From Patescibacteria group bacterium (lineage in GTDB: Bacteria > Patescibacteriota > WWE3 > UBA101185 > UBA10185), in the NCBI GenBank assembly GCA_049322215.1, contig JBMORU010000001.1:969759-1033758 (forward strand): a stretch of 64,000 bases of DNA, in the 5' to 3' direction. Position numbers and translations under genes: made by a program. Below, in pieces: positions 56,769-56,798 of this stretch; position 1 is the first letter of the stretch; every line of letters starts with the position of its first letter. The notes beneath the pieces are model-generated. The model was not told the origin of the DNA, ran no database searches, and saw nothing but the letters and a program-made list of their open reading frames with translations.

Positions 56769-56798
56769 GACGTCGTATAATGTATGTTTAACGACGCC
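56769..56798. other. dif-like / recombinase core-site-like imperfect inverted repeat
   Basis: GACGTCGTATAA - TGTATG - TTTAACGACGCC. The 12-nt arms match 9/12 as an inverted repeat around a 6-nt spacer. The ATAATGTAT core resembles E. coli dif CATAATGTATA (from memory). Confidence 0.35.

What the first reader, a model, noticed from the sequence alone, without database searches (positions are those of the whole stretch)
56769..56798. dif-like inverted repeat ~410 bp upstream of the Xer-type recombinase gene
Seen: the sequence GACGTCGTATAA TGTATG TTTAACGACGCC has two 12-nt arms that are 9/12 symmetric around a 6-nt spacer. Established: Xer and other tyrosine recombinase core sites consist of two ~11-bp inverted arms separated by a 6-8 bp central region. 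E. coli dif is GGTGCGCATAA TGTATA TTATGTTAAAT (from memory), which shares the ATAATGTAT centre. Inference: this may be the chromosome dimer resolution site or the core att site used by the adjacent recombinase. If so, this AT-rich region is the replication terminus or an element junction.
Basis: partly seen in the sequence, partly recalled or inferred. Interest (0 to 1): 0.5.

Follow-up and report, generated by a model that had tools for sequence, protein, structure and literature searches.

The report
Conserved Xer recombination site in WWE3 bacteria
The flagged palindrome is a real 28-bp recombinase target that sits next to its recombinase gene in every related candidate-phylum (WWE3/Patescibacteria) genome examined, most likely to untangle chromosome dimers, but it does not lie where replication forks meet and it carries an unexplained DnaA-box/repeat array beside it.

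Summary
The sequence is exactly as quoted. As a bare palindrome it is unremarkable: the window holds 59 comparable ones against about 41 in shuffles. Comparison with other genomes shows it is real. The conserved unit is a 28-bp block (window 56770-56797) of two 11-bp arms around a 6-bp centre. It is almost unchanged in 75 of 76 species-level genomes, inside unconserved DNA, always 214-930 bp upstream of the same Xer-family recombinase gene and in the same orientation. A motif-first scan of 241 million metagenome records found 99 contigs with one copy each. All 82 contigs with room carry the recombinase gene beside the site, and none carries an orphan copy. One arm plus the centre matches proteobacterial dif (TCGTATAATGTAT). 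The other arm is a near mirror image, not a XerD arm, which suggests a single-recombinase dif/xer module.

The terminus inference fails. Strand bias at four-fold degenerate sites keeps its sign from -24 kb to +56 kb around the site.

About 200 bp from the core lies a conserved array: 3-4 direct repeats (TTGTCATA, 24-bp period), a G-rich spacer, one DnaA-box consensus, and AT-rich tracts flanking the core. Its function is unknown.

The parts
56770..56797 (-). 28-bp Xer-type core site. On the xer-sense (-) strand it reads GCGTCGTTAAA|CATACA|TTATACGACGT. The family consensus is A-Y-GTCGTTAAA|CATACA|TTATACGAC-R-T.
   Evidence: Information content is confined to these 28 positions and the flanks are unconserved. 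The central 24-mer is identical in 50 of 75 species-level loci and has <=6 mismatches in all 75. There is one copy in the 64-kb window at <=3 mismatches and 0 in shuffles. 99 metagenome contigs carry one copy each, always beside xer.
56787..56797 (-). Array-proximal arm (xer-sense GCGTCGTTAAA; consensus AYGTCGTTAAA). This is the more conserved arm.
   Evidence: The left arm is unchanged even in diverged loci (L009, L020, L059, L073, L081), where the other arm drifts.
56781..56786 (-). 6-bp central region CATACA (TGTATG on the + strand). It is non-palindromic, so the site has a direction.
   Evidence: CATACA in 148 and TATACA in 22 of 175 loci.
56770..56780 (-). xer-proximal arm (xer-sense TTATACGACGT; + strand ACGTCGTATAA). 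It resembles the XerC arm of proteobacterial dif.
   Evidence: TCGTATAATGTAT is identical to Acinetobacter ADP1 and Nitrosomonas dif. The arm differs from the other arm only at arm positions 8-9, and this asymmetry is kept in 165/175 loci. In L065, L080 and L082 this arm is TTTAACGAC, a perfect mirror of the other arm.
55373..56359 (-). Xer-family tyrosine recombinase gene (328 aa).
   Evidence: Pfam Phage_integrase 2.7e-44 plus SAM-like N-domain. It scores equally against XerC (254 bits) and XerD (252 bits) models and falls below both cut-offs. The closest solved structures are E. coli XerD and P. abyssi XerA. Catalytic R162, K186, H263, R266, H289 and Y298 are invariant in 26 homologues. Homologues from WWE3/Patescibacteria are 58-77% identical.
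56360..56387 (-). Promoter-like site directly upstream of xer (TTGAAA-16-TAACAT, with TG before the second hexamer).
   Evidence: Consensus scan only. This is weak evidence.
56660..56740 (.). AT-rich tract on the xer side of the core.
   Evidence: Averaged over 132 loci, AT content is about 0.2 above each locus mean at +75..+150 from the core. The window sequence was read.
56880..56975 (.). AT-rich tract between the core and the DnaA-box-like element.
   Evidence: Averaged over 132 loci, AT content is about 0.2 above the mean at -150..-85 (window sequence).
56989..56997 (+). DnaA-box-like 9-mer TTATGCACA (fits TTATNCACA). Most relatives have the perfect consensus, which reads TGTGGATAA on the xer-sense strand.
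   Evidence: There is one box with <=1 mismatch per locus (0.98 per locus against about 0.02 background). It is always in the same orientation and mostly 189-233 bp from the core.
57008..57097 (-). Array of direct repeats. TTGTCATA lies at 57012-19, 57037-44 and 57084-91, with the variant ATGTCATA at 57052-59. The family unit is tGTAnGnTTGTCATAyTTTT.
   Evidence: TTGTCATA is present in 160/163 loci upstream of the core, usually 3-4 copies, with a modal spacing of 23-25 bp. The last copy lies 26-27 bp before the DnaA box, and all copies share one orientation.
57119..57126 (+). ACTATAGG / CCTATAGT motif at the far end of the array.
   Evidence: Present in about 96/163 loci at -300..-450 from the core, in either orientation.

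Best explanation
The 28-bp block at 56770-56797 is the recombination core site of the Xer-family tyrosine recombinase encoded 410 bp away. Together they form a single-recombinase 'dif/xer' module that is conserved across the WWE3 lineage of Patescibacteria (CPR).

Inferred mechanism: one recombinase monomer binds each 11-bp arm (AYGTCGT + TAAA or ATAA). Two such sites on sister chromosomes synapse. The enzyme cleaves and exchanges strands at the edges of the 6-bp centre CATACA, which converts a chromosome dimer into monomers. The fixed two-base difference between the arms and the non-palindromic centre give the site a direction and probably set the order of strand exchange.

Because the site is not at a fork-convergence point, control of the reaction may depend on the conserved array about 200 bp to one side (direct repeats, DnaA box, AT-rich tracts), acting like the accessory sequences of plasmid cer/psi sites, rather than on terminus position.

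Shown: the architecture, the conservation, single-copy linkage to the gene, an intact catalytic set, and the absence of a strand-bias switch. Inferred: binding, cleavage, dimer resolution, and any role of the array.
For: - Architecture: exactly 28 conserved bp arranged 11-6-11 inside unconserved DNA.
- Conservation: the 24-mer core is identical in 50 of 75 species-level genomes whose recombinases are only 58-77% identical, and has <=6 mismatches in all 75. L009 keeps one arm.
- Linkage: the site is always upstream of xer in the same orientation. A motif-first scan found 99 contigs with one copy each; 82 of the 82 contigs with room have xer beside the site, and there are 0 orphan sites.
- Copy number: a single copy in the 64-kb window rules out inversion systems and dispersed repeats.
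- One protein for both arms: the arms are near-identical, and three species have perfectly mirrored arms.
- Independent sign that the half-site is protein-bound DNA tied to xer: in 22 of 123 distinct loci an exact half-site ATGTCGTATAAT overlaps the -10 box 25-28 bp before the xer start, against 11 of 622 control windows.
- The recombinase is Xer-like with a full catalytic set and cannot be assigned to XerC or XerD.
- Precedent: single-recombinase systems XerS/difSL and XerH/difH keep the site next to the gene (PMC5357621).
- Partial identity with dif: 13 contiguous bases.
- ruvC is a conserved neighbour.
Against: - No experiment; binding and cleavage are inferred.
- Whole genomes could not be read, so 'one site and one Xer per genome' is shown only for 64-80 kb of the source genome, +/-10 kb of 76 species, and the absence of orphan sites in metagenomes.
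- The site is not at a replication-direction switch within -24/+56 kb. This is unlike dif in most studied bacteria and archaea.
- The neighbouring DnaA box and repeat array are not expected for a plain dif site and could mean the region has a different or additional role.
- Overall similarity to known dif sequences is not statistically significant.
- The presence of FtsK in these genomes was not established.
Confidence: 0.65

Rival explanations
1. The core is one component of a replication-origin-like region. Direct repeats, a G-rich spacer and a DnaA box, plus AT-rich DNA, would form a plasmid-style (possibly unidirectional) origin, and the Xer site is simply placed next to it. This rivals the view of what the region is for. 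It is compatible with the 28-mer still being a Xer site.
For: - One consensus DnaA box per locus, in fixed position and orientation, in about 150 loci.
- 3-4 evenly spaced direct repeats followed by a G-rich spacer and TGTGGATAA on the same strand. The left end of E. coli oriC has the same order, three 13-mers, a GC-rich spacer, then TGTGGATAA. That sequence was recalled from memory and confirmed 100% identical in 5425 of 5426 E. coli genomes; the names of its elements rest on my own knowledge.
- AT-rich tracts.
- Strand bias never flips across 80 kb, as unidirectional replication would predict.
- Monotonic skew and unidirectional theta replication have been proposed for another CPR order (PMC7143001).
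- gyrA, gyrB, holB and dnaB are neighbours.
Against: [quoted passage not shown]
- No dnaA gene lies within -24/+56 kb.
- No strand-bias switch is seen, so a normal bidirectional origin is excluded.
- No Rep-like gene is evident nearby.
- No flip is equally expected for an ordinary mid-replichore locus.
Confidence: 0.15
2. The 28-mer is only a transcriptional operator. The recombinase, or another protein, binds it to regulate xer or neighbouring genes, with no recombination.
For: A half-site overlaps the xer -10 box in a subclade, so the protein probably does regulate its own gene there.
Against: - The full site lies 214-930 bp from the xer start at a variable distance, which is poor geometry for an operator.
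- It keeps the exact 11-6-11 recombination geometry with a conserved asymmetric centre, which an operator does not need.
- All catalytic residues of the recombinase are invariant.
Confidence: 0.08
3. The site is an RNA hairpin on the xer-sense strand: an intrinsic terminator or a leader structure.
For: - On the - strand an 8-bp stem is followed by UUGUAUUUUUU, with z = -2.7 against shuffles.
- The outer pair often reads U.G, C-G or U-A.
Against: - The T-run is specific to this genome and is not conserved.
- The terminator scan found none.
- The 14-nt 'loop' is as invariant as the stem, and arm positions 8-9 are conserved mismatches.
- Stem pairs 3-7 never vary, so there is no covariation, and 17% of the outer pairs are non-pairs.
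- There are no Rfam hits.
Confidence: 0.04
4. The site is the attachment site of an integrated mobile element whose integrase is the adjacent gene.
For: An integrase-family gene lies next to an inverted repeat, and the intergenic DNA is AT-rich.
Against: - The same housekeeping synteny (LytR_C-virB4-...-yebC-ruvC-membrane protein-site-xer-rnhB-gyrA) holds in 80 species.
- There is no second att-like copy within +/-10 kb.
- There are no close relatives on 2.9 million viral contigs.
Confidence: 0.03

Closest known systems
XerS/difSL of streptococci and lactococci
   Same: One recombinase. The site lies directly beside its gene as a module. The arms are nearly but not perfectly symmetric (PMC5357621; PMC1914069 listed).
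   Different: difSL is 31 bp with an 11-bp centre and an unrelated sequence. The recombinase here is not an XerS orthologue (133 bits against a cut-off of 267). difSL lies at the terminus and needs FtsK; neither was shown here.
XerH/difH of Helicobacter and Campylobacter
   Same: Single recombinase, with the site near the gene.
   Different: The sequence is different (TGAAAAC...TTTTCAAA). XerH is a more distant relative than XerD or XerA (E = 1e-16 against 2e-44).
Archaeal XerA/dif
   Same: Single recombinase. The site is 28 bp with 11-6-11 geometry and near-symmetric arms ending in ATAA/TTAT. It shares only about half its positions with bacterial dif (PMC2958812). The recombinase here has LKD where P. 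abyssi XerA has LKE and XerD has LRQ.
   Different: Archaeal dif is not next to xerA and lies in the termination region. Sequence identity to P. abyssi dif is only 10/28.
Canonical XerC/XerD dif (E. coli and most bacteria)
   Same: 28 bp with 11-6-11 geometry. The XerC-type arm plus centre, TCGTATAATGTAT, is identical to Acinetobacter and Nitrosomonas dif.
   Different: There is no XerD arm (3-4/11). The second arm mirrors the first. Only one recombinase was seen. The site is not at the skew switch.
Plasmid cer/psi resolution sites with accessory sequences
   Same: A Xer core has a conserved stretch of a few hundred bp on one side only, at a roughly fixed distance (189-233 bp to the nearest conserved element). 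Its position is independent of the terminus.
   Different: This site is chromosomal. The accessory motifs differ (TTGTCATA repeats and a DnaA box rather than ArgR, ArcA or PepA sites). No binding proteins have been identified. The properties of cer and psi are taken from my own knowledge, apart from the figure legend seen.
'Cand' subgroup of Xer-related tyrosine recombinases (Smyshlyaev et al. 2021)
   Same: That paper groups Xer-related recombinases from candidate phyla into their own subgroup (PMC8138268). This protein plausibly belongs there.
   Different: Membership was not tested, because their profiles were not available. The phrase 'dif site' does not occur in that paper's main text, and the passages read describe no cognate DNA site.

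Membership tests
Xer recombination core site (generic) | Two ~11-bp inverted arms around a 6-8-bp central region | tested here: met
   The conserved block is 11-6-11 = 28 bp.
Xer recombination core site (generic) | A cognate Xer-family tyrosine recombinase with the R-K-H-R-H-Y catalytic set | tested here: met
   Pfam, NCBIfam and PDB matches. The catalytic residues are invariant in 26 homologues.
Chromosomal dif (dimer resolution site) | One copy per chromosome | tested here: inconclusive
   One copy in the 64-kb window. One copy per +/-10-kb locus in 76 species. One copy per contig in 99 metagenome contigs, with no orphan away from xer. Whole genomes could not be read.
Chromosomal dif (dimer resolution site) | Lies at or near the point where replication-strand bias changes sign (the terminus) | tested here: not met
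   AT bias at four-fold sites keeps its sign from -24 kb to +56 kb in the source genome and within +/-10 kb across about 70 genomes. A wider terminus region is not excluded: the site is at 51.9% of closed CP006914, whose origin coordinate is unknown.
Chromosomal dif (dimer resolution site) | Recombination at the site resolves dimers, with or without FtsK | not testable with these tools
   This needs in vitro or in vivo assays.
Canonical XerC/XerD dif | Conserved XerD arm TTATGTTAAAT | tested here: not met
   3-4 of 11 positions match. No canonical dif is found anywhere in the window at <=3 mismatches.
Canonical XerC/XerD dif | Two paralogous recombinases | tested here: inconclusive
   Only one tyrosine recombinase is present in about 80 kb, and it scores equally as XerC and XerD, below both cut-offs. 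The rest of the genome was not seen.
Single-recombinase dif/xer modules (XerS, XerH type) | The site is genetically linked to the recombinase gene | tested here: met
   Median distance 402 bp, same orientation, in 158 loci.
Single-recombinase dif/xer modules (XerS, XerH type) | The recombinase is an orthologue of XerS or XerH, and the site is homologous to difSL or difH | tested here: not met
   The XerS model scores 133 against a cut-off of 267. XerH is only a distant PDB match. The site sequences are unrelated.
cer/psi-type site with accessory sequences | Conserved accessory DNA on one side of the core at a set distance | tested here: met
   The repeat array and DnaA box lie at -190 to -450 in about 150 loci.
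cer/psi-type site with accessory sequences | Accessory proteins bind there and impose resolution selectivity | not testable with these tools
   No binding data exist and no candidate protein was identified.
Bacterial chromosomal origin (oriC) | A cluster of several DnaA boxes | tested here: not met
   Exactly one box at <=1 mismatch per locus. There is no excess at <=2 mismatches other than the core arm.
Bacterial chromosomal origin (oriC) | Strand-bias sign change (bidirectional replication) | tested here: not met
Bacterial chromosomal origin (oriC) | An AT-rich unwinding element beside a DnaA box | tested here: inconclusive
   AT-rich tracts and T-rich direct repeats flank the box. Unwinding cannot be tested.
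Intrinsic terminator | A GC-rich stem with a short loop followed by a conserved T-run | tested here: not met
   The scan found 0. The loop is 14 nt and invariant. The T-run is not conserved.

The most novel reading that the evidence does not exclude
WWE3 chromosomes carry their dimer-resolution site inside a composite element of about 450 bp that is also a plasmid-style, unidirectional replication origin (direct repeats, G-rich spacer, DnaA box, AT-rich DNA). Origin and terminus would then coincide, and the Xer site sits where replication both starts and ends. This would explain why a dif-like site, a DnaA box and an unchanging strand bias occur together.
Probability: 0.12. Interest if true: 0.9.

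Novelty: new variant of a known kind. Interest (0 to 1): 0.6.

Why it matters
Chromosome dimer resolution is known in detail for XerCD, XerS, XerH and archaeal XerA. The literature searches available here found no site described for the candidate phyla radiation, which is a large share of bacterial diversity.

This finding gives a precise, testable 28-bp substrate and its enzyme for the WWE3 lineage. It shows that the single-recombinase module with the site beside the gene has arisen again with a different site sequence. It also shows a dif-like site that is not at a fork-convergence point and is welded to a DnaA box and repeat array. That raises two concrete questions: whether the reaction is controlled by accessory DNA rather than by FtsK and terminus position, and how these tiny genomes replicate.

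Practically, the 28-mer is an exact marker for the lineage, and it is a natural integration site to look for when seeking mobile elements or building genetic tools.

Tried and rejected
- Rfam at gathering threshold on the whole window, and at E<=1 on 56300-57300: no RNA family.
- tRNA/tmRNA scan: none.
- Terminator scan: none.
- Total GC skew of the window and of L060 does change sign at the locus. I rejected it as evidence because it follows gene orientation. A first regression without an intercept was uninformative.
- Canonical dif search in the window: nothing. Hamming similarity to known dif sequences is not significant.
- Exact core in viral contigs: 0. Recombinase relatives on viral contigs are at best 43% identical, so there is no phage or plasmid copy of the module.
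- DnaA signature search in six frames of all loci: none.
- Attempts to place the window in the 1.11-Mb NCBI contig failed. P0001 is not on record, the NCBI place was collapsed as 'similar', and the look-ups for the LytR_C and VirB4 ORFs failed because of differing start codons.
- The Kantor 2013 paper gives no origin or skew information for CP006914.
- Look for IMEX-like second sites where the core-to-xer spacer is long: none.
- DnaA-trio pattern next to the box: not evident by eye.
- Candidate repeat-binding proteins among the neighbours: the 277-aa protein is coiled-coil and proline-rich, and the 264-aa protein is polytopic membrane. Neither looks DNA-binding.
- The 857-aa ATPase has no PDB sequence match and looks VirB4-like rather than FtsK-like.

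Full report
**1. The observation**

The arms are 9/12 complementary. A 328-aa ORF on the - strand (55373-56359) starts 410 bp away. It is a tyrosine recombinase: Pfam Phage_integrase 2.7e-44 plus a SAM-like N-terminal domain.

The palindrome by itself is not evidence. The window contains 59 sites of 12-6-12 geometry with at least 9/12 matches, against 41 on average in shuffles. Roughly 200 28-mers in this AT-rich window match a proteobacterial dif at 16/28 or better.

**2. The organism and the enzyme**

The recombinase is 100% identical to a protein of a 'Patescibacteria group bacterium' MAG with a 1.11-Mb contig. Its closest relatives, at 68-77% identity, are labelled candidate division WWE3 or Patescibacteria, and in some bulk MAG sets Saccharibacteria or Nomurabacteria.

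It scores the same against the XerC and XerD equivalog models (254 and 252 bits) and falls below both cut-offs. The nearest solved structures are E. coli XerD and the archaeal XerA proteins. The catalytic Arg, Lys, His, Arg, His and Tyr are invariant in an alignment of 26 homologues.

At the position of the XerD 'RQ' that contacts FtsK, this protein has 'KD'. That resembles the 'KE' of P. abyssi XerA (motif definitions from PMC2958812). This is only a hint about FtsK dependence, because XerS also lacks RQ-QQ and yet needs FtsK.

**3. Conservation of the site**

I fetched 80 species-level loci around homologues of the recombinase. Four contigs end 33-664 bp upstream of xer, and no copy of the site is found in the upstream sequence they hold.

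In 75 of the remaining 76, a 24-mer GTCGTTAAACATACATTATACGAC (xer-sense strand) is present with at most 6 mismatches. In 50 of them it is identical. It always lies 224-930 bp upstream of xer, except for one locus at 1.3 kb, and always in the same orientation. L009, the 76th locus, keeps one arm at the expected place.

Information content is confined to 28 positions, A-Y-GTCGTTAAA | CATACA | TTATACGAC-R-T, and drops to background on both sides. This is the 11-6-11 geometry of Xer sites.

The two arms are identical at arm positions 1-7 and 10-11. They differ at positions 8-9 (TA against AT) in 165 of 175 loci. Three species have perfectly mirrored arms. The centre is CATACA in 148 and TATACA in 22 of 175. 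The arm nearer the repeat array never changes, while the arm nearer xer drifts in the most divergent lineages.

**4. Copy number and linkage**

The window holds one copy at up to 3 mismatches, and none occurs in shuffles. Second-best matches in every +/-10-kb locus are at chance level.

A motif-first scan of the metagenome collection with GTCGTTAAAYATACATWATACGAC returned 99 contigs, each with a single match. In all 82 contigs with enough sequence on the expected side, a xer homologue follows in the same orientation at 214-900 bp, with one case at 2.4 kb. No contig had the site without the gene.

The core is absent from 2.9 million viral contigs, and no close homologue of the recombinase is found there.

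Gene order around the module is conserved housekeeping synteny (the 'polA-like' label in that call is in fact GyrA):

LytR_C - VirB4-like ATPase - 277-aa protein - TPR protein (opposite strand) - yebC - ruvC - membrane protein - [site] - xer - (IMPDH-like) - rnhB - gyrA

This excludes a mobile-element junction, an inversion system and a dispersed repeat.

**5. Relation to known dif sites**

On the + strand the site is ACGTCGTATAA TGTATG TTTAACGACGC. The first arm plus centre shares 13 contiguous bases (TCGTATAATGTAT) with Acinetobacter ADP1 and Nitrosomonas dif. The second arm matches the XerD arm at only 3-4 of 11 positions and is instead a near mirror of the first arm. Overall identity is 14-17/28, similar to the 14-18/28 reported for archaeal dif against the bacterial consensus, but not significant here on its own.

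The arrangement of one recombinase with near-symmetric arms and the site beside the gene is the pattern described as a hallmark of XerS/difSL and XerH/difH (PMC5357621). The enzyme is not an orthologue of either, and the site sequences are unrelated.

**6. Independent support that the half-site is a protein-binding element tied to xer**

In 22 of 123 distinct loci an exact or one-mismatch half-site, typically ATGTCGTATAAT, lies 16-43 bp before the xer start, mostly at -25 to -28. There its TATAAT serves as the -10 hexamer. The control rate is 11 of 622 windows. This suggests autoregulation in one subclade. The source genome does not have it.

**7. The RNA alternative**

On the - strand the site can fold into an 8-bp stem followed by a U-run. 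Four points count against a hairpin function:
- The U-run is not conserved.
- The 14-nt loop is as invariant as the stem.
- Stem pairs 3-7 never vary, so there is no covariation.
- 17% of the outer pairs are non-pairs.

Rfam finds nothing.

**8. Terminus or not**

Total GC skew does change from + to - at the locus in the window and in L060. However, genes converge at the 3' end of xer, and total skew follows the coding strand.

At four-fold degenerate sites the picture is different. In the source genome, genes on the xer-sense strand have T>A (AT4 -0.04 to -0.38). Genes on the other strand have A>T (+0.01 to +0.21), except for two short ORFs, L31 and a 78-aa ORF, each with about 30 or fewer counted sites. 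This holds gene by gene from 24 kb on one side of the site to 56 kb on the other.

The bias therefore belongs to the DNA strand, not to the direction of transcription, and it does not flip at the site. If it flipped, genes to the right of the site would be expected near +0.13, whereas they are at -0.16 to -0.18 with a standard error of about 0.04.

Across about 70 other genomes a two-parameter model (a gene-direction term plus a strand term that does not flip) fits all four classes of genes. A model that flips at the site does not. The xer-sense strand is G- and T-rich, the usual leading-strand signature, so forks appear to pass through the module in the direction of xer transcription.

No dnaA gene lies within this 80 kb.

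In the closed genome CP006914 the module lies at 51.9% of the record, but the paper gives no origin information. The site is therefore not at a fork-convergence point. Whether it lies in a broader terminus region could not be decided.

**9. The unexpected neighbour**

A fixed architecture lies upstream of the core on the side away from xer. From the far end inward it consists of:
- ACTATAGG/CCTATAGT motifs.
- 3-4 direct repeats of tGTAnGnTTGTCATAyTTTT at 23-25-bp intervals. TTGTCATA is present in 160 of 163 loci.
- A G-rich run followed by TGTGGATAA, the reverse complement of the DnaA-box consensus TTATCCACA, 26-27 bp after the last repeat. There is one such box per locus, always in this orientation, mostly 189-233 bp from the core.
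- About 50 bp of unconserved sequence.
- An AT-rich tract.
- The core.
- A second AT-rich tract on the xer side.

In the window these elements are at 57119-26, 57008-57097, 56989-97 (TTATGCACA), 56880-56975 and 56660-56740.

The distance from array to core is far more constrained than the distance from core to xer, so the array and the core look like one element.

I considered three readings.

(a) Accessory sequences in the manner of plasmid cer/psi sites. These would give resolution selectivity without a terminus position.

(b) A replication-origin-like unit. The order of repeats, GC-rich spacer and TGTGGATAA is the same as at the left end of E. coli oriC, whose sequence I recalled and confirmed in 5425 genomes. 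[quoted passage not shown] It would therefore have to be unidirectional, as proposed for another CPR order with monotonic skew (PMC7143001).

(c) A polar fork barrier. This rests only on a remembered resemblance to Ter sites.

None of the three can be settled with the tools available here.

**10. Novelty**

Full-text searches combining dif, Xer, tyrosine recombinase and Patescibacteria or candidate phyla radiation returned no paper describing such a site. Smyshlyaev et al. 2021 name a 'Cand' subgroup of Xer-related recombinases from candidate phyla, and the passages of that paper I read describe no DNA site for them.

I therefore rate this a new variant of a known kind: a new dif/xer module with an unusual position and an unusual accessory region.

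**11. Verdict**

The best explanation is a single-recombinase chromosome dimer-resolution site (confidence 0.65). The main open question is what the adjoining DnaA-box and repeat array does.

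Noticed in passing
window 56493-56503 (- strand), within GAGGCTCTAGAATGCCCTGTAAGCAATTTTTA: A second conserved element, GGCTCTAGAATGCCCyAGGATyGATTTTT, lies 40-120 nt upstream of the xer start in 63 of 158 loci, about ten times the background rate. It could be the xer promoter (a TAGAAT -10 box) or a leader element.
   Followed up: partly
loci L014, L020, L025, L026, L030, L034, L040, L043, L045, L049, L062 and others, 25-28 bp before the xer start: An exact Xer half-site, ATGTCGTATAAT, overlaps the -10 box of the xer promoter in one subclade (22 of 123 distinct loci against 11 of 622 control windows). 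This suggests autoregulation. It is absent from the source genome.
   Followed up: yes
metagenome loci L085-L183 and genome loci L013, L020, L022, L032, L034, L035, L056, L064, L066, L072: By a rough count from locus coordinates, about 20 of the 99 metagenome contigs end within about 250 bp of the core. Eleven of the 33 genome contigs that end within 10 kb upstream of xer do so within 1.5 kb of it. The cause could be assembly breaks in the flanking AT-rich tracts or strain-level structural variation at the site.
   Followed up: partly
window 1-64000 plus L264 and L265 (80 kb of the source genome): There is a strong, uniform strand bias at four-fold degenerate sites. The - strand is T-rich whatever the gene direction (strand term about 0.18), with almost no matching GC bias. 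Total GC skew in this genome follows gene orientation instead.
   Followed up: yes
window 60771-63344 (-): An 857-aa ATPase (DUF87/HerA and TrwB-like P-loop, with DUF8128 on the called gene) is conserved 5-7 kb from the module in 63 of 80 loci. It is most likely the VirB4 of the Patescibacteria type IV secretion system. A 2025 paper reports virB4 within 20 genes of dnaA in most Patescibacteria classes, but no dnaA was seen within 24 kb here.
   Followed up: partly
window 56787-56797 and 56989-56997: When its second base is T, the array-proximal arm (A-TGTCGTTAA-A) is only two mismatches from the DnaA-box reverse complement TGTGGATAA. The repeat TTGTCATA and the box both look like the arm AYGTCGTATAA with one or two inner bases missing. 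This may be coincidence or common descent.
   Followed up: no
window 54208-55290 (+): An IMPDH/GMP-reductase-like gene of 360 aa between xer and rnhB falls below every NCBIfam equivalog cut-off. It is present in only 31 of 80 related loci, sometimes inverted, which makes it a variable insertion in an otherwise fixed gene order.
   Followed up: no
window 20533-41513 (-): A 21-kb single-strand block encodes a type IV pilus system (PilO, PilN, PilM, several N-methyl pilins, prepilin peptidase, PilC, and two PilB/PilT-type ATPases). It also encodes two very large proteins (1058 and 955 aa) with no Pfam match.
   Followed up: no
window 58512-59066 (-): The YebC/TACO1-family ORF is only 184 aa, and the second Pfam domain matches in two pieces. 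It may be a shortened form. It is conserved next to ruvC in 68 of 80 loci.
   Followed up: no
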